Of a stretch of DNA of 64,000 nt, positions 3,862-25,751 are shown piece by piece. The notes beneath the pieces are model-generated. The model saw only the letters and a list, made by a program, of their open reading frames with translations. It was not told where the DNA came from and made no database searches. Numbering within the stretch: position 1 is the stretch's first letter; the number at the start of each line of letters is the position of its first letter. Made by a program: the position numbers and the translations under genes. Origin of the DNA: Acidobacteriota bacterium (lineage in GTDB: Bacteria; Acidobacteriota; UBA6911; RPQK01; JAJDTT01); NCBI GenBank assembly GCA_965209055.1, contig OZ242374.1, positions 1,728,001 to 1,792,000 on the forward strand, given 5' to 3'.

Positions 3862-5030
3862 TGCGGGTTCGAACGGGTCTTGACCACTTTCTGGAACAAC
3901 GCCTGGACCTGGTGGCCGGCAAGCGGGTCACCGTCGTCGCCCACGCCGCCTCGGTGGACTCCCGCCTCCGCAACATCGTCGACCTCTTCCGGCATCATCC
4001 CGGGATCGACCTGGTTTCGGTCATGGGCCCGCAGCACGGAATCTACGGCGAGACCCAGGACAACATGGTGGAGTGGGAGGGTTACCGGGATCCGGACTCG
4101 AATCTGCCCTTTCGCAGCCTGTATGGAGAGACCCGGCGGCCCACCCGGTCCATGTTGTCGGAAACCGACATCCTGGTGTTCGACCTGCAGGACGTGGGAG
4201 CCCGCTACTACACGTTCATCCACACCCTGGCCCTGGTCCTGGAGGCGGCGGGAGAGTCCGGAAAGGAGGTCGTGGTCCTGGACCGTCCCAATCCCATCGG
4301 CGGCGTCCGATTGGAGGGTCCCGTGCTGGACCCGGCCTTCCGTTCCTTCGTGGGGTTGCATCCGCTGCCGATCCGGCATGGGATGACCGTGGGAGAGATC
4401 GCCGGCTACCTGAACTCGGAGTTCGAGTTGGGATGCCCGCTCCAGGTGGTCCCCATGCAGGGTTGGAATCGGGAGATGTATTTCGAGGAGACGGGCCTGC
4501 CCTGGGTCATGCCCTCTCCCAACATGCCCACGGTGGAGACGGCCCTGGTCTATCCGGGCCTCTGCCTGCTGGAAGGGACCAACGTCTCGGAGGGGAGGGG
4601 GACCACGAGACCCTTCGAGTTGTCGGGAGCTCCCTGGATCCGGGCTCCGGCACTGGCCGCGGAACTGGAATCGGCCCGGCTTCCGGGAGCCCGCTTCCGG
4701 CCCCTCTATTTCATTCCCACCTTTCACAAATGGGCCGGCGAGCGGGTGGGGGGAATCCAGATCCACGTCACCGACAGAGCCCGGTTCCAACCCTTTCTGA
4801 CCGGACTGGTTCTGGTGCATCTGTATCGGGAGTTGAGCGGCGGAAGATTCGAGTGGAAACCGCCGCCCTACGAATACGAGACGGAGAAGCTCCCCTTCGA
4901 CATTCTTTGCGGTACGGACCGTCTCCGGCTCCAATTGGAAGACGGAACGGCGCCCCGGGATGCGGCCCGGGAATGGCAGTCCCAACTCGAGGTTTTCGAC
5001 CAAGTGCGGCGGCGGTATCTGCTCTACTGA
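3861..5030 (+). CDS. namZ: DUF1343 exo-beta-N-acetylmuramidase (NamZ-like)
   Basis: GPQHG, SLYG, FDLQDVGARYYTF, VLDRPNP, RHGMTVGE, PSPNMPT, SEGRGTTRPFE; ATG at 3861 overlaps the mqnA stop. Confidence 0.9.
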   Translation: MRVRTGLDHFLEQRLDLVAGKRVTVVAHAASVDSRLRNIVDLFRHHPGIDLVSVMGPQHGIYGETQDNMVEWEGYRDPDSNLPFRSLYGETRRPTRSMLSETDILVFDLQDVGARYYTFIHTLALVLEAAGESGKEVVVLDRPNPIGGVRLEGPVLDPAFRSFVGLHPLPIRHGMTVGEIAGYLNSEFELGCPLQVVPMQGWNREMYFEETGLPWVMPSPNMPTVETALVYPGLCLLEGTNVSEGRGTTRPFELSGAPWIRAPALAAELESARLPGARFRPLYFIPTFHKWAGERVGGIQIHVTDRARFQPFLTGLVLVHLYRELSGGRFEWKPPPYEYETEKLPFDILCGTDRLRLQLEDGTAPRDAAREWQSQLEVFDQVRRRYLLY

Positions 5031-5055
5031 CTTCTCGGGAGAAGAGAATCGACGA

Positions 5056-5769
5056 ATGCCGGAGGAGAGCCGCTTGGAGATCGAGGCCAAGGTTCCTCTC
5101 GAAGTGGAGGACCTGGATGGCGTGCGCTCCAGGCTGCGGGAGATCGGGGCTCGCCTCGGCACACCCCGCCTCCGTGAAGAGAACACCCTGTTCGACTTTG
5201 CCGATGGAAGACTGGAAAAGGCCGATTCCGCCCTCCGGGTCCGGACCTTCGGCCGGGCGTGCCTGCTGACCTACAAGGGAAGGTCGCGGGAGCACGCCTT
5301 CCTGAAGTTGCGGGAAGAGATCGAGACCCGCGTGGAGGACCCCGACGCCCTGATCAGGCTGCTGGAGCTTCTGGGGCTTCGAAAGGCCTTTCACTACTGG
5401 AAGTATCGCGAGATCTACAGCCTGGAATTTCCATTGGGGACAGTCACTGTCACGCCGGACGAGGCGCCCGCCCTATTGGGGACAGTCCCTTTGGAGACGC
5501 CATTGGAGACGGACATGGGCGCGGACATGGGGACAGTCCCTTTGGCGACAGACACCGTCGTGGGGACGGACATGGGGACAGTCCCGTTGGGGACAGTCAC
5601 CGTCGCGCTGGATGAGACGCCCATCGGCTTCTTCGCCGAGGTCGAAGGCCCGGAGGAATCGATTCGGGCGGTGGTGGAGCTCATGGGTTGGGACCCGGCG
5701 TCATTCATTCGTGAGAGTTACCCCAAGTTGTATCGGGAGCACGGCCTCGGGGCCCCGGAAACAGAATGA
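5056..5769 (+). CDS. CYTH / class IV adenylate cyclase-like protein with an internal repeat expansion
   Basis: EIEAK, LRVR, LTYKG, REEIE, KYREIY, LDETPIG and EVEG motifs; about 51 extra codons of GTVP repeats. Confidence 0.85.
   Translation: MPEESRLEIEAKVPLEVEDLDGVRSRLREIGARLGTPRLREENTLFDFADGRLEKADSALRVRTFGRACLLTYKGRSREHAFLKLREEIETRVEDPDALIRLLELLGLRKAFHYWKYREIYSLEFPLGTVTVTPDEAPALLGTVPLETPLETDMGADMGTVPLATDTVVGTDMGTVPLGTVTVALDETPIGFFAEVEGPEESIRAVVELMGWDPASFIRESYPKLYREHGLGAPETE
5434..5622 (+). repeat. In-frame GGGGACAGTC repeat expansion inside the CYTH gene
   Basis: GGGGACAGTC at 5436, 5478, 5529, 5574 and 5589; 36-bp imperfect direct duplication 5434-5469 / 5587-5622. Confidence 0.9.
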
Positions 5770-6776
5770 AGGCAATGATTCTCGCGGCCGGGCTGGGCAG
5801 CCGCCTGCGTCCGCTGACCTGGCTCCGGGCCAAGCCGGCCGTTCCCCTCTTGAACCGTCCCCTGATCCGCCATGCCTTCGACCTGCTGGATTCCCTGCGG
5901 ATCGGGGAGGTGGTGGTGAACCTGCATCACCTGGGCCGATCGGTGACCGGGGCGTTGGAGGGGGTGACGCCGAAGGTGCGCTATTCACCGGAAACGGAAA
6001 TCCTGGGCACGGCCGGAGCCGTGGGGCGGGTCCGGGATTTCTGGGGGACGGAGCCCTTCGTGGTCTGCAACGGGAAGATCTATTTCGAACAGGATCTGGG
6101 TCCGGTTCTGGCCACCCACTGCCGGAGCGGCGCGCTGGCGACCCTGGTCCTGGTGCCGCGGAAACCGGAAGATCCCTTCCGGCCCGTCTTCCTGGCCGGA
6201 GACGGGCGGATTCGAGCCTTCGGACAGGATCTGCCGGGACGGGCGGACGGGCCCGGCTACGTGTTCACCGGCGTCCAGATCCTCTCCGCCGCCGTTCTGG
6301 ACCTGATTCCGGAGGGCCCCTCGGACCTGGTCAAGCAGATCTACGAACCGTTGGTGGCCCGGCGCGGACCCGTCATGGGATTTGTCAGCCGGGCTCACTG
6401 GTTCGAGTGCAGCACCCCCGAGCGGTACCTGGAAAAGTCGATGGGACTGCTTGCCCGAAGGGGTCTGAACCAGCTCCCGGAGCATTCCGGAGGGAAGAAT
6501 TGCCGGAGCGTGGTTCTGGGGAGCGGCGTCCGGGTCCCGGAGGGAACCGCTCTTGAGCGCTGCGTGATCTGGGACGGCGCCCGCCTGGGCTCCCGTTGCC
6601 GGCTGCGGGACTCGATCGTCGCCGGCGAGGTGGAGATTCCCGCGGGGACCCGGCTGTCCAACGTCGTGGTGACACCCCCCTTCCCGGCGCCGCTTCGGCC
6701 CACCGGCGAGACCCATCCGGACTACTGGACCTGGCCGCTGGAAGGACCCTGGCCGGGCAAGGAGTCGGTTCCGTAG
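5766..6776 (+). CDS. Nucleotidyltransferase (MurU-like / NDP-sugar synthase)
   Basis: MKAMILAAGLGSRLRPLT...KP, VVVNLHH, ILGTAG, CNGK; C-terminal hexapeptide-like region; adjacent to an AmgK-like kinase. Confidence 0.85.
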   Translation: MKAMILAAGLGSRLRPLTWLRAKPAVPLLNRPLIRHAFDLLDSLRIGEVVVNLHHLGRSVTGALEGVTPKVRYSPETEILGTAGAVGRVRDFWGTEPFVVCNGKIYFEQDLGPVLATHCRSGALATLVLVPRKPEDPFRPVFLAGDGRIRAFGQDLPGRADGPGYVFTGVQILSAAVLDLIPEGPSDLVKQIYEPLVARRGPVMGFVSRAHWFECSTPERYLEKSMGLLARRGLNQLPEHSGGKNCRSVVLGSGVRVPEGTALERCVIWDGARLGSRCRLRDSIVAGEVEIPAGTRLSNVVVTPPFPAPLRPTGETHPDYWTWPLEGPWPGKESVP

Positions 6777-13013: not shown

Positions 13014-13128
13014 GGATAACAAGGGACAGTCTCGATTCCGTACGTACGATTCCGTAACAAGGCGGATAACAAGGATAACAAGGGACAGTCTCGATCTTGC
13101 GCAAGGGATAACAAAGGACAGTCTCGAT
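13014..13128 (+). repeat. Three direct repeats GGATAACAA(G/A)GGACAGTCTCGAT on the 3' side of the HUH nuclease gene
   Basis: Copies at 13014-13036, 13073-13095 and 13106-13128, plus partial (GGA)TAACAAGG units between them. Confidence 0.9.
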
Positions 13129-13332
13129 TCCGGACTGGAACCGGAACGAGTCATGACGCCATAAGAAGCCTGTCCGGAAGCGGAGCAGTGACTATTTGCA
13201 CATGGGTGGAACTCCGGAGGACCACCCACACGCTACGGGGAGAAATTCAGTCTGGTGGGCGGTTCCACCGATCTGGGTCGTTCGGGCCCGGGTCCCGCAG
13301 CGGCAGATGCGACGGTCGGAGCCCAGGTGAGT

Positions 13333-14268
13333 CTACGTGACAAACGCGTTTGAGCGTTGCTCTCGCAGGGAATACAGCACTCCGTCCAGTTGGGGGATGG
13401 GGTGTCGGCGACGTCGATATCGACCTTGCTGCCGATATGCCTCCAGCAGCTGCGCCACCTTCTCCGCCGGCCCGACGGCTATTCCGTCCGTCAGGAATCG
13501 CAAACGCCGACGAAAAGCTCCGGCGCGGGTAAAGCCACGGCGCTGCTCCTGCAGGACAACCCACCCGGGGATCGCCGCCTGGTTGTCCCGGGTGGGGACG
13601 GCGCCTCGATAGTACAAGCGAGCCCGGTAACTGCCGTAGACATCGGTTCCCGGAGCCGGCGGGAACAGTTCCTCCAAGGGGATCAGGTCCTGATCCTGGC
13701 CGGTGACTCTCCAGCGGGCCGAGCCCCACTTCCACTGCTCGGGCCGGTTGACCATTCCGGCCCGGACGGCATTGAGTTCCACGTATAGGACGGCGTCCTG
13801 CACGGCTTCAAGTCCCATTAGCTCCGGGTTCTTGAACCGGTCACCCCACAAGTGGCCCCGCCGTCGAAACGTGCGGTTGTACCACCGGGCATAGAACCCG
13901 CCCACGTTCGCCATCAGTTTGGACACGTCAAAGAGACGCTCATTGAACGTCTTCCAATCGGCGTCGGTCCAATCGGCGGTATTTTTCTCGGTCTTTCGTC
14001 CATAAAGCTTGTGGGCGCTCTCCTTCAACTCCTGTCGGGACAAGGGGCGGGGTTTTTCAAAATGGACGATGAAGTGGTAATGGTTGCCCATGATCTGGAA
14101 AGCGGCCAGACGGCACCGGTAGGCGTTGACGTAGAACAAAATCATGTCCAGGAGTTTCTGACGGGCTTGCGGGTCTTCGAAGGGGAACCAATCGGGCGAG
14201 CCGGCGACACGATTGGTGATGTGGTAGAAGGCGGCGTCCGTGCTCTTGTGTCGTGCGGTTCGGGCCAT
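13333..14268 (-). mobile_element. HUH/Y1 tyrosine transposase-like nuclease (RAYT/TnpA-REP-like, long form)
   Basis: FYHITNR, IMGNHYHFIV (HUH), WYNRTFRRRGHLWGDRFK, YVELNAVRAGMV.RPEQWKWGS. Confidence 0.9.
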
Positions 14269-14370
14269 GGCTACGGTCTTCGGTCAAGCGGACTTGAGGG
14301 GGAGACGTTTTGTGCCCCTGATGACAACAACGATTCAGAATTGGAAACGGCGAAGGAAACTGGGAAAAAA

Positions 14371-14415
14371 CAGACTGTCCCCTTCTGGAAGAAGCAGACT
14401 GTCCCCTTCTGGAAG
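14371..14415 (-). repeat. Tandem CAGACTGTCCCCTTCTGGAAG x2 on the 5' side of the HUH nuclease gene
   Basis: Copies at 14371 and 14395; they contain GGGGACAGTC on the minus strand, inverted relative to the 13014-13128 copies. Confidence 0.9.
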
Positions 14416-14488
14416 GAACAGGAGAACCTCGGCATCAGGACGATGCCCGCTCTTATCTCTCTTCTCCCGGGTCATCTCTTCTCCCGGG

Positions 14489-15472
14489 TCAATCCTCCTG
14501 CGCGACGGCGGCTGCCTCCAGATCGATTTCCTCCTGCTTGCGAATCGAGTAGTAGACGATCCCCGGCAGGGACGACAACATCATCACCACGAAACCGAGC
14601 AGGGACAGAGTTACGGACATCTCGGCCGGAACTCCCGCCTGGGAGAAGAGCAGATAGTAGGCGCTCTCGCGAAGACCGATCCCGTTGATGGTGAGAGGCA
14701 CCATGATGGTCAGGTTGATCAAAGGCACGAAGACCATGAAGAGTGAGAATGGAGCTTCGATCCCGATTCCCTGGGCCGTCACCCAGACCACCGCCACCGC
14801 CCCGGCCTGGATGGGAAGCGACACCACGGCGACAGAGGCCATCTTGCCCGAATTCCGCTTCAGGGCGTCCAGGCCCTGGTAGACGAGCTCCATTTTCCGG
14901 GTCAGGGAATGGAAGCCGAACCTCTGCACCATGCAGGTCATCCGGCCGTGGGTCCAAGAGTGGAACAGCATCACGTTGGCCACGGCATACACGGCGCACG
15001 CGGCAAGGAAAATATGGAGGGACGAAAGTCCGGCGATCTGTTGGGGGACGACGAGGGAGGCGGCGAGACCGATGAGCAACAGGCCGCAGAGGCCACCGTT
15101 GCGTTCCAGCATGCTGGTGGTGAGAGTCGTGGACATGCCTCGACCCGTACCCTTGGACAGATAGTAGGCGCGAAAGACATCTCCGCCGATGGCCGAGGGC
15201 AGGAACAGGTTGAAGAAGGCGCCGATGAAGACGAGCTTGGTGAGCGGATACCAACGCTGGCAGATGTTGAAATTCTCGAGAACGATTCTCCAACGGAACG
15301 CCGAAAGCAACAGTGTGAGGATCTGAATCGAAACCGCCAGCAGCAGGAATTCGGGACGGGCGCCGGCTACGACGTGGAGCAACCGGGTCAGGTCCAGGCG
15401 GCTCAGAACCAGACCCAGAAAGGAAAAGCTCAGGATCAGCTTCAGGATCAGCTTGACCCGAGCTTGCGGCAA
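14489..15472 (-). CDS. Lysylphosphatidylglycerol synthase TM-domain (YbhN/flippase-like) membrane protein
   Basis: Multiple TM segments; RW, FFNLFLPSAIGGDVFR, ER and PLTINGIGLRE motifs; start inferred (TTG). Confidence 0.85.
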   Translation of the reverse strand: MPQARVKLILKLILSFSFLGLVLSRLDLTRLLHVVAGARPEFLLLAVSIQILTLLLSAFRWRIVLENFNICQRWYPLTKLVFIGAFFNLFLPSAIGGDVFRAYYLSKGTGRGMSTTLTTSMLERNGGLCGLLLIGLAASLVVPQQIAGLSSLHIFLAACAVYAVANVMLFHSWTHGRMTCMVQRFGFHSLTRKMELVYQGLDALKRNSGKMASVAVVSLPIQAGAVAVVWVTAQGIGIEAPFSLFMVFVPLINLTIMVPLTINGIGLRESAYYLLFSQAGVPAEMSVTLSLLGFVVMMLSSLPGIVYYSIRKQEEIDLEAAAVAQED

Positions 15473-18236: not shown

Positions 18237-20891
18237 TCACAGCGATTTCGCTCCGAAGCCCTCCAGGGTCCAGCCCACAACCCATCGGGAATGGTTGTCG
18301 TGCCCGGAAGCTGCGTTGTCGGCATCGACGGGGGCCACCGACTCGAGATTGGACTCCCGGAGAAATTCTTCCATCTGCGAACGATGCCCATACATGGCCA
18401 CCAGGAAGCGAATGGGATCGACCTGGGCCAGCAGTTCGGTCTCATAGGCGTCGATGCCGTCGGCGCCCCCCTTGATCAGTCCTAACGCCCGTTTCAGGCC
18501 AGGCACGAGATTGGTCAGACCGGCGCCGCCCCGGGGAACCAGGAGGCTGCCGTCCTGCGCATTGACGTGGGTCCAGGAGTGGGTCCCGCCGGCGCCGATG
18601 TAGGCCGAGGCGCCCATGCCTGCCACGATGGGAATCCCATAGAGGCGTCCCAGATCCAGATAGGGACAGATATCCTGGCCGGCCTGCCCCCTGAGGTCCT
18701 GCAGCGGGTCGAGCTGGACCTGGTCGACAAGCTTCTCGCGGCACCAGCGCTCCACGTCCAGACCCTGCGCCAGGTTGTGGAACAGACCCGCCGCCGGGAT
18801 GCGCACGGCCACGGGAACGGTCCGATCGAGGGCGGCGAGTCCGGCCTTCAGGTCGCGCAGCACCTGGGTGAAGAAGTCCGCCCGCCAGCGGACCCAATCG
18901 CGGTAGGGCCGTCCGGCGGAGACGTCGATCTTTCTGGGGTCCACCCCGGTCGCCTTTCGATAAGCCGCGACCATCTCAGGGTTGTAAAGGAGCATGGGGA
19001 CCTGGCGGTCGCATCCCACCAACAGGCCGTCCGCCCCCCGCTCGGCCACCTCCAGCAGGATATCGACCCGTTCCTTCCGGACCTGGGGGAAGTAGTAGCT
19101 CAATCCCCTGGAGTCGGAACCGTCCTTGGCGATCCTCCACCATTGCTGATGCCGCCGGTAAAACTCGCTGGCGAATATGCCTCCGTAGCGGTCGGCGCCA
19201 TAGTGGCGCTGCATGGCCAGCCAGGGCCAGACCTGCGCGCGGCAGTCTTCCCGGGTCCCGTTGACCTGGGTCAAGGCATCGTATTCGTTGATCATGTGGA
19301 TGCGCCGGCCGTAGTCGTGGGGGGAAAAATCCCGGTTTTGCTTCGCCTCCTCGTAGGAAGCACAGGGGAAACGGGTCGTCCGGGGAAGCCGGCTGTGGTA
19401 CTCGACCCATGACCGGCCCACCGACCAGCCGATGGCCCCGAATCCCAATTCGGACTGTCCGCAGGCGATGCTCCGAAACTGGTCCGGAAGGAGCCGGGCC
19501 CAGACCACGTCGAAGTAACAGGCCCAGTCGTTCACCGCCGACAGCGGCGTTGGCGGCGAAGACATCCGGTTCTTGAGCTTCCGGGCCGATTGGGGCGTGA
19601 CCGGAACCAGCCGCAGGAGGGTGGCCATGCCCCGCTGTTGGCCGGCCTTCTTCCAGTCGAGCCACCTCCCGGGATCGCCGGCAGAGTAGAAACGAATGAC
19701 TTCTCCGGTCAGATCCGCGGCGGTGACGAAGGTCTCCTCCCCCAACTGGGTCGGCGGAGCGTCCCGAATCAACCCTTCCCGGCCCACCTGAACGTGCAGA
19801 CCCGAACCTCCCGTCCCCAGGAAGACGGCATAGGTCCCCTCGACGGGTGGACGAAAGGTCGCGGGAGGGGAGGTGTAGTCCCCTCTCCCCACCAAGGCGA
19901 CGCCCTCATTGGGAAGTGGTTTCCATTCCCAGGATTCCGCGTCGAGGGGACTGTCCCCCCAACGGCCGTGGGCGCGCCGAAAGTTGCGGACCCGGATCTC
20001 GGGACGCCCGGGGTCGATCCGAAGACGCCAAGTGGCCAGGGGGGTGAGCGGGAGACTGTCCGGCGGCCCGGTTCTCCGCCGGTAGTCCAGGGCGGGGCCG
20101 TCCGGCCAGAGCCGCCCACCCACCTTGGGCAAAAACTGCACCCGGTAATTCCCGTCGGGCCAACCCTCGACCGGCACCGGAACCTTCCGAATTCCCTCTT
20201 GGCAAGTCAGCGTCAGCTCCCTGGTCCAGAGGGACTTGCCGGAGGCGTCAAAGATCCTCATCTCGCCCTCGACTCGCTCCGGTCCGGCGCCGGGACGAAC
20301 CTCTGCCAACAGGGAAAGACGATCCTGGTGGAGGAGGACGTCCGGGTGCATCCGAAGCGAGATCAGATTGGCGGAGGCCAGCTTGGGATCGAATACGACC
20401 CGCTCCGGTCCGCCGTCGACGAAACGCAGGGCCTTGACCGGGAGCCCGCCCTCGCCCATCCCCAGCCGTTCGGTCGTCACCTCCCGGCTGAGTTGCTGGC
20501 GGAAAACCCAGGTCTTCGTCCAATCGCGGACTGTCACCTGGAGTTCGATCCGGTAGCCGCGAAAATAGACGGCGCCCGCTTCAAATTCGTAACGGCCGGG
20601 AGCGGTCAGAGGTCCCAGGTCGAAGCTGATCCGGCGCCGGAACGATCGAGTCTCGGTGACGGTCCGGCCGAACGGCAGACGCCGGGTCACCCGTCCCTGG
20701 AACTCCAGGTCTCCAGGCTCGAGAACGGTGAAGCTCAAACGATGGTGGACTCCCGGAACCAGCTGCAACTCCCGGCCGGCCGGATCGAGGTCCACCCCAT
20801 CGAAGGAGAGCTTCACCCCGGCAGGGGTTTCGGCGGCCACGGGAAGTGGGATCAGAATGCACAGAATCGAAAGACGTCTCCAGGTCCTCAT
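18237..20891 (-). CDS. Large secreted hypothetical protein with a probable C-terminal TIM-barrel glycoside hydrolase-like (GHL10-like) domain
   Basis: Signal peptide from M at 20891; SEFYRRHQQW, LSYYFPQVRKER..ILLEV..GADG, WVRWRA..FTQ, GLDVERW resemble GHL10-type proteins. Confidence 0.55.
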   Translation of the reverse strand: MRTWRRLSILCILIPLPVAAETPAGVKLSFDGVDLDPAGRELQLVPGVHHRLSFTVLEPGDLEFQGRVTRRLPFGRTVTETRSFRRRISFDLGPLTAPGRYEFEAGAVYFRGYRIELQVTVRDWTKTWVFRQQLSREVTTERLGMGEGGLPVKALRFVDGGPERVVFDPKLASANLISLRMHPDVLLHQDRLSLLAEVRPGAGPERVEGEMRIFDASGKSLWTRELTLTCQEGIRKVPVPVEGWPDGNYRVQFLPKVGGRLWPDGPALDYRRRTGPPDSLPLTPLATWRLRIDPGRPEIRVRNFRRAHGRWGDSPLDAESWEWKPLPNEGVALVGRGDYTSPPATFRPPVEGTYAVFLGTGGSGLHVQVGREGLIRDAPPTQLGEETFVTAADLTGEVIRFYSAGDPGRWLDWKKAGQQRGMATLLRLVPVTPQSARKLKNRMSSPPTPLSAVNDWACYFDVVWARLLPDQFRSIACGQSELGFGAIGWSVGRSWVEYHSRLPRTTRFPCASYEEAKQNRDFSPHDYGRRIHMINEYDALTQVNGTREDCRAQVWPWLAMQRHYGADRYGGIFASEFYRRHQQWWRIAKDGSDSRGLSYYFPQVRKERVDILLEVAERGADGLLVGCDRQVPMLLYNPEMVAAYRKATGVDPRKIDVSAGRPYRDWVRWRADFFTQVLRDLKAGLAALDRTVPVAVRIPAAGLFHNLAQGLDVERWCREKLVDQVQLDPLQDLRGQAGQDICPYLDLGRLYGIPIVAGMGASAYIGAGGTHSWTHVNAQDGSLLVPRGGAGLTNLVPGLKRALGLIKGGADGIDAYETELLAQVDPIRFLVAMYGHRSQMEEFLRESNLESVAPVDADNAASGHDNHSRWVVGWTLEGFGAKSL

Positions 20892-23648: not shown

Positions 23649-23890
23649 CGTTCGCCACTCCCGAAAGATTCGGAGCGAAAAGGTCGCCCCAAGAGTTTCC
23701 TCACCCGCACGAATCAGATTCTGGCCACGGGGAACTTATTTCTCAACACCCGGAGTCCAGGATGTTCGACTGATCCTGAAGGCCGTTGGTAATCGCCCGG
23801 CGGCCACCGGGCGATTACCGGCACGGAAAACGCACCCTCCGCGGCAGTGTAGCCCCGGCCGAAAAGCGGAGATTCGCCGCCCCGCTCCTT

Positions 23891-24500
23891 GCCCAACTCC
23901 AGACTGTCCCTGTTTGAGTCTCCCCCATTTCCGGACTGTCCCCATTTCCACGAGATCGGGACTGTACCCATTTCCACCCTGAGATCCAGACTGTCCCCAT
24001 TTCCCGCATTTCCCCCAAGACTGTCCCCATTTCCCCCATTTCCCTGCCCAACTCCGGACTGTCCCTGTTTGAGTCTCCCCCATTTCCAGACTGTCCCCAT
24101 TTCCCTTTCCACGAGATCCAGACTGTCCCCAACTCCCCCCAGATCCAGACTGTCCCCAACTCCCCCCCATTTCCGGACTGTCCCCATTTCCACGAGATCG
24201 GGACTGTCCCCATTTCCACGAGATCGGGACTGTCCCCATTTCCCGAGATCGGGACTGTCCCCATTTCCCGAGATCGGGACTGTCCCCATTTCCACCCTGA
24301 GATCCAGACTGTCCCCATTTCCCCCATTTCCCTGCCCAACTCCGGACTGTCCCTGTTTGAGTCTCCCCCATTTCCAGACTGTCCCCATTTCCCTTTCCAC
24401 GAGATCCAGACTGTCCCCAACTCCCCCCATTCCCAGACTCGAAATCTAGACTGTCCCCATTTCCAGGGACCCGAGACTTGAGATCCAGACTGTCCCCATA
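23891..24500. repeat. Mosaic tandem array of 20 GACTGTCCC units (GGGACAGTC on the minus strand)
   Basis: 19 exact cores plus one variant (GACTGTACCC) at ~25-40 bp spacing, all in one orientation; reused linkers such as ATTTCCACGAGATC, TGTTTGAGTCTCCCCC and AACTCCCCC. Confidence 0.95.
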
Positions 24501-24572
24501 TCCAGGGACCTGGCTCCCGGCTTGGAGCGGACGGCCTCGACAGGTAGTCTTGATGGAAACCTGGGTCGTGGA

Positions 24573-25751
24573 ATGAAGAGAGTGATGTCCGGACGCGATG
24601 CCGGCAAGCGGCGAGACCCACGCCGTCCGGGTACGGTGGTGCTGGCCATGGGGTGGTTGGCCGGTTGCGCCCTGGCTCCGGAGGCGGAGTCCCCGGACAG
24701 CGGCTTCAGCATCGCCGAGAGCGGAGAAGAGATCGTCATCTCGGGACCGGCCCTGGAGGCCCGGATCCGGAAGCAGGGCTACGTCAGCGGAGTGGCCGGA
24801 GGTTCGTTCCTGGACCGGAAGACAGGCTTTCGCGACGCCGGACATGGTCTCCATATCGCCGACTTCCTGCTGGAGCCGGGCAGCGCCGATTCCGATGGTG
24901 GTCAGCCCCCCGATGAGTTGCGCTACCTGGATGACCCTCTCATCCATGGATTGCGCCCCAAGCGGATCGTGGAGGGTCCCCAGATCTGCACCCGGGCGCG
25001 GCGCCTCTCGCCCCGGCTGGTGGAGGGCCCGGACTTCGTGGCGGTCACCATGGACTTCACATACACCGTGGCGGCGCCGGGAAAGCAGCCGGGATCGAAG
25101 TGGACCCAGACCATCGTGTTTCCGGCCGGCGCGCGTTACTTCGTGTCCAGCGACCGGATCGATTCGGTCAACGACAGCGACTCCCTGTTCCTCCGCATCG
25201 ACATGCCCGGCCACATCAAGCACCGGGGGGGAGACGTCTTCAGCGAGGTCTACCTGAGCTACTTCGGCAAGATTCCGGCGGACCGGTTCCTCACCGATTT
25301 CGGTCCGGACGGCAGTTTCAACTATCGGACGGACCGGAATGAACGCCCCTCGAGATTCATCCGCGCCTACCGGTTGCGGGACCCGGAATCAGGGCGGGAC
25401 GGACCCTGGCTCGCCGGGATGACTCTCGATCCGGACACCGTATACGAAGCTTGGTGCCATCAGCGGGGTTACGTCTGCATGATCCAGGAGCTGGGCGGTC
25501 ATCCGATCCGGGCGGGAGAATCCTTCGGCGCCGCCTACGTCGTCGGCTACTTCGACTCCATCGACGAGATGAACCGGGTCTACGACCGCTACGCGGGTCA
25601 CCGCGGACTCTTCGTGGACCGGAATCGGTGGCGGCTGACGAAACGGGTTTCGGGGAGCGAAAGGGAGGCAGGGGCTCCCCTTGTGGATGCCCTCTTCGGT
25701 CCAAACCGGAGCAGATTGCGGCATTTCAAGGGTCCGGGAGGTGGAGGATGA
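24573..25751 (+). CDS. Conserved hypothetical protein (probable lipoprotein)
   Basis: WLAGC lipobox; GYVSGVAGGSFLD, EGPQICT, FLRIDMPGHIKH, EAWCHQRGYVCMI; start uncertain. Confidence 0.65.
   Translation: MKRVMSGRDAGKRRDPRRPGTVVLAMGWLAGCALAPEAESPDSGFSIAESGEEIVISGPALEARIRKQGYVSGVAGGSFLDRKTGFRDAGHGLHIADFLLEPGSADSDGGQPPDELRYLDDPLIHGLRPKRIVEGPQICTRARRLSPRLVEGPDFVAVTMDFTYTVAAPGKQPGSKWTQTIVFPAGARYFVSSDRIDSVNDSDSLFLRIDMPGHIKHRGGDVFSEVYLSYFGKIPADRFLTDFGPDGSFNYRTDRNERPSRFIRAYRLRDPESGRDGPWLAGMTLDPDTVYEAWCHQRGYVCMIQELGGHPIRAGESFGAAYVVGYFDSIDEMNRVYDRYAGHRGLFVDRNRWRLTKRVSGSEREAGAPLVDALFGPNRSRLRHFKGPGGGG

What the first reader, a model, noticed from the sequence alone, without database searches (positions are those of the whole stretch)
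13014..14415. HUH/Y1 nuclease bracketed by inverted GGGACAGTC motifs that also seed local amplifications elsewhere: candidate motif-directed repeat-generating system
Seen: the RAYT-like gene has three GGACAGTCTCGAT-containing direct repeats on one side and two GACTGTCCCC repeats on the other, in opposite orientation. The same core appears 20 times at 23.9-24.5 kb and 5 times inside the CYTH gene. The 13.0-kb and many 24-kb copies share the longer consensus GGGACAGTCYVGAT. Unlike classical REP/REPIN elements, these are not long hairpins in inverted pairs. Within each cluster they are co-oriented, and the DNA repeated with the motif is locus-specific. Established: HUH Y1 enzymes nick and rejoin ssDNA at short motifs. 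Inference: this enzyme recognises GGGACAGTC and produces local duplication or shuffling in trans, rather than moving a fixed element. Short G-rich repeats beside some TnpA-Y1 subclasses may already be described, so novelty needs a literature check.
Basis: partly seen in the sequence, partly recalled or inferred. Interest (0 to 1): 0.8.

Follow-up and report, generated by a model that had tools for sequence, protein, structure and literature searches.

The report
Tyrosine-nuclease gene with self-amplifying flanking motif
A single-strand-DNA nuclease gene of a known but barely studied kind sits between inward-pointing arrays of its own short recognition motif. Comparison with sister genomes shows that the same motif seeds fast-changing local repeat arrays elsewhere, even inside protein-coding genes.

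Summary
GGGACAGTC occurs 29 times in the window against 0.9 expected, bracketing an intact 311-aa HUH/Y1 gene in inverted orientation.

It is not a new kind of system. RAYT-like genes flanked by inverted repeats sharing GGGGWSAS, which GGGGACAG fits, were named TIRtrons/TIRYT by Di Nocera et al. 2013. This scan already filed the same family that way on another acidobacterial genome (e1-750197).

What I add:
- All 60 homologous loci examined in 9 genomes carry the core upstream, and 51 of 60 carry it inverted downstream.
- Motif arrays occur only in genomes that have the nuclease.
- The CYTH-gene array, an independent array in a neighbouring gene of a sister species, and the 633-bp array at 24 kb are all absent from orthologous sites of congeners. 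They also differ between conspecific strains.
- The boundaries of tandem half-unit duplications pile up at GGGAC^ and ^GTC.
- Nineteen of 60 loci are bracketed by 43-232-bp direct duplications of host DNA.

No biochemistry shows it. I rate it a new variant of a known kind, of moderate interest.

The parts
13014..13131 (+). Array on the 3' side of the nuclease gene. It has three units of GATAACAA(G/A)GGACAGTCTCGAT(T/C), pointing toward the gene, with locally duplicated left (GATAACAAG) and right (CGATTCCGTA) flank pieces.
   Evidence: A conspecific strain (X1) shows small indels here and a back-join 13137->13073, i.e. an extra unit.
13333..14268 (-). Intact 311-aa HUH/Y1 (RAYT-like, TIRYT) nuclease gene. 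H63-Y-H65 and Y162 are invariant. It has a ~55-aa helical insertion after the HUH strand and a conserved C-terminal extension.
   Evidence: Pfam PF01797 scores 28.1 bits against a cut-off of 23. NCBIfam REP_Tyr_transpos scores 48.6, below its cut-off of 80. Invariant columns come from a 24-sequence alignment. The AF2 model has pLDDT 80.7, and its best PDB fold match is 4er8, the E. coli RAYT, at E 2.3e-5.
14269..14362 (-). 5' leader between the start codon and the innermost motif. It is partly conserved among paralogs and is presumably the promoter/5'UTR.
   Evidence: identity among copies c1-c3 is 57-97% in the 40-column windows over the last ~100 nt before the ATG.
14363..14421 (-). Array on the 5' side of the gene. 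It has two units of CCAGAAGGGGACAGTCTG(C/T)TT, pointing toward the gene.
   Evidence: TRF gives period 24 and 2.5 copies. Strains X1 and X5 differ here (tables 4 and 5c).
14458..14491 (.). Perfect 17-bp tandem duplication just outside the 5' array. One copy is missing in strains X1 and X5.
   Evidence: TRF. table 4: 17 letters left out at 14458 in X1 and X5.
5437..5598 (+). In-frame array of five motifs inside the CYTH-domain gene (ORF 4960-5769). It adds residues ~165-209 and is built partly from diverged copies of the gene's own flanking sequence.
   Evidence: The insert is absent in orthologs of G002-G005, and is present with a different structure in G001. Strain X1 replaces 5494-5587 with 8 letters (table 5c).
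23882..24514 (-). Orphan array of 633 bp with 19 exact and 1 near-exact motif copies. Its inter-motif modules are shuffled and mostly of the ...GGGACAGTC(C/T)(C/G)GATCTC type. There is no nuclease gene nearby.
   Evidence: It is a clean insertion relative to all 5 congeners aligned. Strain X3 joins 24000->24514. A strain X5 contig holds 1739 nt where this genome has 853.
19949..19957 (-). Isolated motif copy inside a long ORF. It is probably a chance occurrence and not part of the system.
   Evidence: 64 of the 186 genome copies lie in crudely called coding DNA, which is about the chance expectation.

Best explanation
This is a TIRtron. It consists of a RAYT-like Y1 HUH nuclease gene (a TIRYT, closest to subclass 2.3 of Quentin et al. 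2018) together with its cognate DNA site. The site has a ~14-nt core, RAARGGGACAGTCT. It stands as inward-pointing, co-oriented arrays on both sides of the gene, and as orphan copies and arrays elsewhere.

The locus is old and vertically inherited, not a freshly transposed insertion sequence.

Most likely the enzyme nicks one DNA strand in the quasi-palindromic centre, 3' of GAC on either strand. That is GGGAC^A on the top strand and A^GTC as read on the top strand for the bottom-strand cut. Repair, template switching or strand transfer at these nicks then duplicates the DNA immediately left or right of the motif, reshuffles or inverts units, and expands or contracts arrays.

Because the enzyme needs only the motif, the same thing happens in trans wherever a motif or half-motif arises. 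This includes coding sequence, where only in-frame products survive.

Shown here:
- the identity of the gene;
- the gene-motif association and its orientation;
- the lineage-specific birth and strain-level variability of the arrays;
- the enrichment of duplication boundaries at the motif centre.

Inferred:
- that the enzyme makes the nicks;
- the exact cut positions;
- the repair route.
For: Gene identity:
- Pfam Y1_Tnp above cut-off.
- HUH and Tyr invariant in 24 homologs.
- Fold match to 4er8 and the IS608/ISDra2 transposases.

Association of gene and motif:
- All 6 paralogs in this genome are flanked by the motif.
- In 60 loci from 9 genomes the forward core lies within 900 bp upstream in 60 of 60, and the reverse core lies downstream in 51 of 60. 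Orientation totals are 104 against 18 upstream and 137 against 18 downstream.
- Homologs at 56-57% identity carry the related cores GGGACAGAC and GGGACAGTT.

Co-occurrence across genomes:
- The 10-mer occurs 62-153 times per genome in the 9 genomes of the genus, against 1-7 for the reversed control.
- Closely spaced co-oriented pairs number 2-54 per genome in the genus, 17 in G023 and 8 in G040. They number 0 in 11 of the 12 genomes without a nuclease match, and 1 in the twelfth (G030).

Local, recent and trans events:
- The CYTH array is absent in 4 of 5 congeners, where the site reads GGAGCCGTCACC. It is differently built in the fifth.
- G004 has an independent in-frame 5-motif array in the neighbouring nucleotidyltransferase gene. 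It starts exactly 3' of an ancestral GGGGAC and contains copies of both host flanks.
- The 24-kb array is absent from all 5 congeners.
- Contigs of three conspecific strains differ at all four arrays.

Cut-site signature:
- Among 243 motif sites, ends of upstream tandem duplications peak at +5, after GGGAC (10; local background about 2).
- Starts of downstream duplications peak at +6, before GTC (9).
- No duplication starts between -2 and +3.
- Genome-wide in G000 the same positions collect 5 and 6.

Age of the locus:
- The same gene sits next to the same cytochrome c gene in 4 of 5 congeners. Identities are 80-86%, close to the neighbour's 82-90%.
Against: - No biochemical or read-level evidence links the enzyme to any of the rearrangements.
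- Duplication boundaries also peak at +2 (9) and +10 (8). Orthologous loci in sister genomes are not independent, so the effective sample is smaller than 243.
- No hairpin covariation was found: own flanks give a mean stem of 3.30 nt against 3.11 +/- 0.13 for permuted flanks. Solved Y1 transposases recognise hairpins.
- No replication-strand bias: 32 of 57 loci.
- The 24-kb array has no seed motif at the empty sites of relatives. At least that array arrived by insertion or is the remnant of a larger element.
- G005 lacks gene and arrays together, which fits movement or loss as a unit.
- G035 has no homolog yet shows 30 copies of the 10-mer against 3 for the control. This is explained only in part by a different hairpin repeat.
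- The gene map used for the coding versus non-coding split is my own crude caller.
Confidence: 0.6

Rival explanations
1. It is an ordinary autonomous insertion sequence. The gene plus its inverted ends transposes as a unit. The arrays are piled-up or decayed ends from repeated insertions, and orphan arrays are remnants of lost copies.
For: - There are six copies per genome, three of them 97-100% identical in protein.
- G005 lacks gene and arrays together at the syntenic site.
- 19 of 60 loci are bracketed by 43-232-bp direct duplications of host DNA that resemble long target duplications.
- A strain X5 contig holds about 0.9 kb more DNA than this genome at the 24-kb array.
Against: - Between the near-identical copies, high identity stops at the ends of the coding sequence. 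The DNA between gene and arrays is only 2-65% identical on the 3' side. The arrays and spacers are therefore not carried along as a fixed element.
- Two loci are syntenic across the genus: 4 of 5 and 7 of 8 congeners.
- Arrays inside the CYTH and nucleotidyltransferase genes contain copies of the host's own flanks and no trace of a nuclease gene.
Confidence: 0.17
2. The arrays are generic minisatellites made by replication slippage or unequal recombination between short repeats, independent of the nuclease. The motif is merely a sequence prone to such events, or a hitch-hiker.
For: - Array units are short (15-55 bp), mosaic and variable between strains.
- Several duplication boundaries lie outside the motif centre (+2, +10, +14).
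Against: - Arrays are essentially confined to genomes with the nuclease: 0 in 11 of the 12 genomes without it, and 1 in the twelfth.
- There is strict inward orientation around 60 genes.
- No duplication starts inside positions -2..+3 of the core, and there are sharp peaks at +5 and +6.
Confidence: 0.13
3. The motif is a binding site or RNA element with a host function (operator, terminator, mRNA stabiliser). The nuclease gene is simply regulated by it, and arrays grow under selection for that function.
For: - 85 of the 186 genome copies lie in non-coding DNA away from nuclease genes, and some sit just after stop codons.
- One sub-type has a weakly palindromic consensus, GAGAAG-core-CTTCTC.
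Against: - Arrays occur inside coding sequences of unrelated genes.
- Flanks show no covariation.
- The distribution follows the nuclease family, not any host regulon.
Confidence: 0.05

Closest known systems
TIRtrons / TIRYT (TIR-associated tyrosine transposases), Di Nocera, De Gregorio & Rocco 2013, BMC Genomics 14:522 (PMC3733652; passages read)
   Same: - A RAYT-like HUH/Y1 gene flanked by terminal inverted repeats rather than REP hairpins.
- Many TIRs share GGGGWSAS, which GGGGACAG fits.
- The paper notes a sharply defined acidobacterial group.
- TIR copies form moderately abundant families in dimers and clusters.
   Different: The passages I read do not describe any of the following:
- co-oriented multi-unit arrays on each side;
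- half-unit duplications bounded at the motif centre;
- long host-flank duplications;
- arrays born inside genes;
- synteny across a genus.

I did not open their Figure 9 sequences or Additional file 5, so I cannot say whether this exact core is listed.
TnpA-Y1 subclass 2.3 of Quentin et al. 2018, BMC Genomics 19:475 (PMC6006769; sections 17 and 22 and passages read)
   Same: - NHYH form of the HUH motif.
- Y motif YVELNA against their YVDLNP.
- Length 311 aa against a median of 325.
- A ~55-aa insertion between beta3 and alphaC.
- A long conserved tail.
- Several diverged copies per genome (their mean is 3.9).
   Different: They report the subclass mainly from Chromatiales and Alteromonadales, with 'no' REP-like structures flanking it. 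Here the host is an acidobacterium and the flanking motif arrays are conspicuous. Membership was not tested with their HMMs.
REP/RAYT and REPIN systems (E. coli TnpA-REP, PDB 4er8; Nunvar 2010; Bertels & Rainey 2011; Bertels 2017, PMC5581495, passages read)
   Same: - A Y1 HUH enzyme flanked in inverted orientation by the short repeat it is thought to disseminate.
- Vertical inheritance.
- REP clusters reiterated in tandem together with flanking DNA, and intragenic REPs, are described for REP families.
   Different: - There is no GTAG-tagged palindrome and there are no inverted doublets.
- There are 6 gene copies rather than about 1.
- The NCBIfam RAYT equivalog score is below its cut-off.
- The motif family is small (about 100-150 copies).
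IS200/IS605 family (IS608, ISDra2)
   Same: Same catalytic fold. The G004 array starts exactly 3' of a pre-existing GGGGAC. That recalls the insertion of these elements 3' of a short specific target, which I state from recall.
   Different: - No subterminal hairpins were found.
- Copies do not share conserved ends.
- No tnpB was looked for.
- The loci are syntenic across species.

Membership tests
HUH Y1 transposase superfamily (Pfam PF01797) | Profile match above the curated cut-off | tested here: met
   28.1 bits against a cut-off of 23. The whole-genome family scan also finds it.
HUH Y1 transposase superfamily (Pfam PF01797) | HUH metal-binding motif and a single catalytic tyrosine | tested here: met
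   N62, H63, H65 and Y162 (in LYVELNA) are invariant in 24 homologs down to 51% identity.
HUH Y1 transposase superfamily (Pfam PF01797) | Y1 transposase fold | tested here: met
   The AF2 model (pLDDT 80.7) matches 4er8 at E 2.3e-5. IS608, IS200 and ISDra2 transposases follow at probability 0.99-1.0. Sequence-only PDB searches found nothing.
RAYT (REP-associated tyrosine transposase) | NCBIfam equivalog NF047646 above cut-off | tested here: not met
   48.6 bits against a cut-off of 80.
RAYT (REP-associated tyrosine transposase) | Flanked by palindromic REP hairpins (GTAG-tagged), usually as inverted doublets | tested here: not met
   The units are not palindromes. The flank-complementarity test is negative: 3.30 against 3.11 +/- 0.13, and 17 of 99 stems of 5 nt or more against 12.2 +/- 3.1. 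A separate GTAG hairpin family exists in the genome but belongs to another Y1 gene.
RAYT (REP-associated tyrosine transposase) | Typically single copy, vertically inherited | tested here: inconclusive
   There are 6 copies, but two loci are syntenic across the genus.
TIRtron / TIRYT (Di Nocera 2013) | RAYT-like gene flanked by terminal inverted repeats unrelated to REPs | tested here: met
   Inverted cores on both sides here and in 51 of 60 homologous loci.
TIRtron / TIRYT (Di Nocera 2013) | TIR contains the GGGGWSAS motif | tested here: met
   The upstream consensus aAgAAgGGGACAGTCT contains GGGGACAG in 74% of units. The downstream consensus has A/G at the first position. The motif definition comes from the paper.
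TIRtron / TIRYT (Di Nocera 2013) | Protein clusters with the acidobacterial TIRYT group of that paper | not tested
   Their Additional file 5 was not opened, and none of their sequences was compared.
TnpA-Y1 subclass 2.3 (Quentin 2018) | Key motifs NHYH / WE / YVDLNP, beta3:alphaC insertion of ~55 aa, long tail, several copies | tested here: inconclusive
   NHYH is met. The Y motif is YVELNA and the W motif is WG rather than WE. Helices 78-133 lie between the HUH strand and the next core element. There are 6 copies. Their HMM was not available.
IS200/IS605 insertion sequence | Copies share conserved ends with subterminal hairpins | tested here: not met
   Identity between near-identical copies collapses at the ends of the coding sequence. 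No hairpin signal was found.

The most novel reading that the evidence does not exclude
The nuclease is a domesticated, trans-acting site-specific nickase. Its motif works as a portable 'expansion seed'. Wherever GGGAC(A)GTC arises, nick-induced duplication builds hypervariable arrays.

Such a system would:
- write in-frame peptide repeats into host proteins;
- duplicate 50-230 bp of host DNA across its own loci;
- invert and shuffle its flanks.

It would be a programmed local-diversification system rather than a transposon.
Probability: 0.2. Interest if true: 0.75.

Novelty: new variant of a known kind. Interest (0 to 1): 0.5.

Why it matters
By the passages I read, TIRYT enzymes have no biochemistry and no known cleavage site. 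In those passages their inverted repeats are described only as flanking repeats that form families in dimers or clusters.

The comparative data here give a concrete, testable prediction: cleavage 3' of GAC on either strand of GGGAC-A-GTC. They also provide natural before/after pairs showing what the system does to a genome:
- it builds and reshuffles short arrays;
- it duplicates adjacent host DNA;
- it occasionally writes in-frame repeats into housekeeping proteins.

If confirmed, this would connect REP/RAYT-type domesticated nucleases to local repeat genesis and protein-repeat evolution. It would also offer a small motif-directed nickase with a defined 9-14-nt site.

Tried and rejected
1. 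Variable-stem hairpin with the motif in the loop. Many single copies look like X-core-rc(X). Permuting upstream and downstream flanks between loci gives almost the same complementarity, so the appearance comes from a purine-rich/pyrimidine-rich consensus, not from covariation.

2. Replication-strand bias of orphan copies. None was found: 32 of 57 loci. The GC-skew-based origin and terminus are themselves weak.

3. Sequence searches of the PDB with the protein and with a 24-sequence profile. Only chance hits at E of about 0.1. The fold search was needed instead.

4. A 1.2-kb repeat near some orphan copies. It turned out to be an unrelated IS5-family element about 215 bp away.

5. G035 as a counter-example (motif enriched, no nuclease). 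In about 8 of the 21 contexts read, the motif lies in a different hairpin repeat, GGGGACAG-loop-CTGTCCCC, mostly followed by a T-rich run. G035 has no closely spaced arrays.

6. Search for an empty site at the second locus (copy c2). All 7 congeners with enough contig have a nuclease gene there, so there is no before/after pair.

7. Read-level heterogeneity. Only assembled contigs were available. They show differences between strains but cannot show variation within a population or the rate of change. Source-sample short-read contigs simply break at the arrays.

8. The NCBIfam RAYT equivalog is below its cut-off.
Full report
OBSERVATION

The window holds 29 exact copies of GGGACAGTC against 0.91 expected; 0 of 100 dinucleotide-preserving shuffles reach 29. 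They are placed as follows:
- five on the + strand at 5437-5598;
- two on + at 13023 and 13082, with a third one-mismatch copy at 13113-13131;
- two on - at 14373 and 14397;
- one at 19949;
- nineteen on - at 23902-24496, with one more one-mismatch copy.

Between the two small clusters lies the ORF 13333-14268(-), 311 aa. It matches Pfam Y1_Tnp above the cut-off (28.1 bits against 23). It matches the NCBIfam RAYT equivalog below its cut-off (48.6 against 80). The description is accurate in every particular.

THE GENE

In an alignment of 24 homologs down to 51% identity, N62, H63, H65 and Y162 (in LYVELNA) are invariant, and the whole length including the C-terminal 120 residues is conserved.

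An AlphaFold2 model (mean pLDDT 80.7) finds the E. coli REP-associated tyrosine transposase 4er8 as its best PDB match (E 2.3e-5). IS608, IS200 and ISDra2 transposases follow. Sequence-only PDB searches gave nothing.

Several features match subclass 2.3 in Table 1 of Quentin et al. 2018 (PMC6006769, sections 17 and 22 read):
- the NHYH form of the HUH motif;
- the ~55-residue helical insertion after the HUH strand;
- the length;
- the several diverged copies per genome.

The W and Y motifs differ slightly from that subclass, and I could not run their HMMs.

GENOME-WIDE PICTURE

The window lies in a 6.08-Mb, 62.8% G+C single-contig genome. Named homologs, an earlier scan note and the sequencing runs point to an acidobacterial sponge symbiont.

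The genome has 186 copies of the 9-mer against 46-95 expected under Markov orders 1-4. By my own crude gene map, which% of the genome coding, the copies split as follows:
- 64 in coding DNA, about the chance level;
- 20 within 900 bp of a nuclease gene;
- 17 belonging to an unrelated hairpin repeat;
- 85 in other non-coding DNA.

tblastn finds six paralogs of the nuclease at 100, 99, 97, 82, 71 and 70% identity. Every one has motif copies on its flanks.

ASSOCIATION ACROSS GENOMES

The nuclease is found in 29 of 41 related genomes. This includes all 8 congeners, with 3-12 matches each. G016, an unpublished genome, is one of the 41 and matters only for these tallies.

I collected 60 loci from 9 genomes: 1 from G000, 7 from G004, 11 from G007, 7 from G001, 4 from G005, 7 from G006, 11 from G003, 10 from G002 and 2 from G023.
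- The core GGGACAG lies on the gene's strand within 900 bp upstream in 60 of 60.
- It lies on the opposite strand downstream in 51 of 60.
- Orientation totals are 104 against 18 upstream and 137 against 18 downstream.

The consensus is aAgAAgGGGACAGTCTrtTTttCCgg upstream and gaAaGGGACAGTCtCgaTT downstream. Homologs at 56-57% identity carry GGGACAGAC or GGGACAGTT instead.

Counts of the 10-mer GGGGACAGTC:
- 62-153 per genome in the genus, against 1-7 for the reversed control;
- 76 against 4 in G023;
- 3-30 against 2-20 in the 12 genomes without a nuclease match.

A stricter pattern, two co-oriented cores 8-38 nt apart, occurs as follows:
- 2-54 times per genome in the genus;
- 17 times in G023 and 8 in G040;
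- 0 times in 11 of the 12 nuclease-less genomes, and once in the incomplete G030, which has a weak homolog.

The one apparent exception, G035, has no homolog and owes part of its modest 10-mer excess to a different hairpin repeat: about 8 of the 21 contexts read. Neither refutes the link.

ARRAYS ARE BORN LOCALLY AND TURN OVER FAST

1. The CYTH gene.
- Orthologs in G002-G005 match residues 1-164 and 210-269 contiguously, with no insert. The site there reads GGAGCCGTCACC.
- G000 and its nearest relative G001 have the motif at that codon position and five motif copies each, but with different inter-motif DNA.
- In G000 the first unit is a diverged copy of the gene's own downstream 30 bp.

2. The adjacent nucleotidyltransferase gene in G004.
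- It carries an independent in-frame array of five motifs.
- The other five genomes read GGGGAC GGGC GGGTTCG at that site.
- The G004 insert begins exactly after that GGGGAC. It contains a copy of the left host flank (CCTGGCTG) and ends with a copy of the right host flank.

3. The array at 23882-24514 is a clean insertion relative to all five congeners aligned. Their sequence has no motif at the junction.

4. Contigs from three conspecific strains in other samples differ from this genome at each array (contigs only).
- X1 replaces 5494-5587 with 8 letters and has extra units at both nuclease flanks.
- X3 joins 24000 to 24514.
- An X5 contig has 1739 nt where this genome has 853.
- X1 and X5 lack one copy of the 17-bp duplication at 14458.

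A CUT-SITE SIGNATURE

Many flanks show tandem duplications of only the left part (X-GGGAC repeated, then AGTC) or only the right part (GGGACA, then GTC-Y repeated).

I scored exact tandem-repeat boundaries around all 243 distinct motif sites of the 60 loci.
- Ends of upstream duplications peak at +5, right after GGGAC (10 events), with a second peak at +2 (9).
- Starts of downstream duplications peak at +6, right before GTC (9), and at +10 (8).
- No duplication starts between -2 and +3.
- The uniform expectation is 0.4 per offset, and the local background is about 2.

The same two positions collect 5 and 6 events genome-wide in G000.

The two positions are mirror images on the two strands of GAC-A-GTC. 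This is what cleavage 3' of GAC on either strand would give. The sample is modest and orthologous loci are not independent. I therefore treat the exact cut positions as an inference.

OTHER ANATOMY

- The three near-identical paralogs are 95-100% identical only across the coding sequence and up to about 100 nt upstream. Identity falls to 2-65% right after the stop codon. The arrays and spacers are therefore not carried as a fixed element. Gene conversion or very fast flank turnover is implied.
- The window's locus is syntenic. The nuclease sits beside the same cytochrome c gene in G001-G004, at 80-86% identity against 82-90% for the neighbour. G005 has neither gene nor motif in a 350-bp spacer.
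- The second locus (copy c2) is occupied in the 7 congeners with enough contig. In G001 the gene is inverted relative to the neighbour, with a mosaic of upstream-type and downstream-type units.
- 24 of 60 loci have a direct repeat between their upstream and downstream flanks (E <= 1e-4). Removing three that contain a motif, one degenerate unit and one neighbouring leader leaves 19. These are 43-232-bp duplications of host DNA at 83-98% identity, bracketing gene plus arrays. Copies c2 and c5 of this genome show the same feature.
- No hairpin covariation and no replication-strand bias were found.

WHAT IS KNOWN

Di Nocera et al. 2013 (PMC3733652; passages read) named RAYT-like genes flanked by terminal inverted repeats TIRtrons and their enzymes TIRYT. 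The paper:
- reported that many TIRs share GGGGWSAS;
- singled out an acidobacterial TIRYT group;
- noted TIR families in dimers and clusters;
- described, for REP families, tandem reiteration with flanking DNA and intragenic copies.

Quentin et al. 2018 repeat the GGGG[AT][CG]A[CG] consensus and state that subclasses 2.1 and 2.3 lack REP-like structures. Bertels et al. 2017 (PMC5581495; passages read) give the single-copy, vertically inherited picture of RAYTs.

A full-text search for TIRYT/TIRtron found three papers, of which two were listed, the ones above. This scan had already filed the same family as a TIRtron on another acidobacterial genome (e1-750197), and that note led me to the literature.

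In the passages I read I did not find:
- the boundary signature;
- the long host duplications;
- the lineage-specific in-frame arrays;
- the synteny.

I did not open their figures or supplements.

VERDICT

The thing is a TIRtron, a known kind. It awaits biochemistry.

The rivals are:
- unit transposition (0.17);
- nuclease-independent slippage (0.13);
- a host regulatory element (0.05).

I rate this a new variant of a known kind, with interest 0.5.

Noticed in passing
G000:C1:1142970-1143203 (gene) and about 60 dispersed sites; outside the window: A second, classical-looking Y1 gene (HVH motif; the open frame is 307 aa) lies beside a tyrosine-integrase gene. The genome also carries a separate hairpin repeat family, (G)TAGGAGGGGGGAC-loop-GTCCCCC. 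Seventeen of its copies happen to contain GGGACAGTC.
   Followed up: partly
Loci L005, L007, L008, L025, L027, L034, L035, L038, L041, L043, L046, L047 and others; G000 copies c2 (genome 5.164 Mb) and c5 (4.989 Mb): Direct duplications of 43-232 bp of host DNA, often the 3' end of the neighbouring gene, bracket the whole gene-plus-arrays unit in 19 of 60 loci. This is far longer than ordinary target-site duplications.
   Followed up: partly
L040/L104 (G001:C1:1651370-1655302): At the locus orthologous to copy c2, the nuclease gene is inverted relative to its neighbour. Upstream-type and downstream-type units are intermixed in both orientations, which suggests inversion or recombination among motif copies.
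   Followed up: partly
G004:C1:2612252-2612322 (L015 2596-2665): An in-frame five-motif array lies inside the nucleotidyltransferase gene (ortholog of window 5766-6776). It starts exactly after an ancestral GGGGAC.
   Followed up: yes
Paralogs of window 24522-25751 in G001-G005 (e.g. G004:C1:4967700-4968746, L024): All five relatives have a 54-56% identical paralog with exactly one in-frame TGA. This may be a conserved selenocysteine or read-through codon rather than five independent pseudogenes.
   Followed up: no
G000 genome 2.713, 3.222-3.230 and 3.534 Mb: A ~1.2-kb IS5-family element is present in at least four near-identical copies. It is unrelated to the motif.
   Followed up: partly
G035:C1, e.g. 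L084, L087-L089, L095: A relative without the nuclease carries a dispersed hairpin, GGGGACAGTCTACTCTGTCCCC, mostly followed by a T-rich run. It looks like a terminator and reuses the same G-rich arm.
   Followed up: partly
G004:C1:665234-665360: A tandem array of GGGACAGTGGGGTACAG with a 17-bp period and about six units. It is a different array type built on the same core.
   Followed up: no
window 13343-14275: In the source-sample short-read contigs, the nuclease coding sequence assembles as a separate 933-nt contig at about twice the flanking depth and with 9 differences. This is the collapsed signal of the near-identical paralogs.
   Followed up: no
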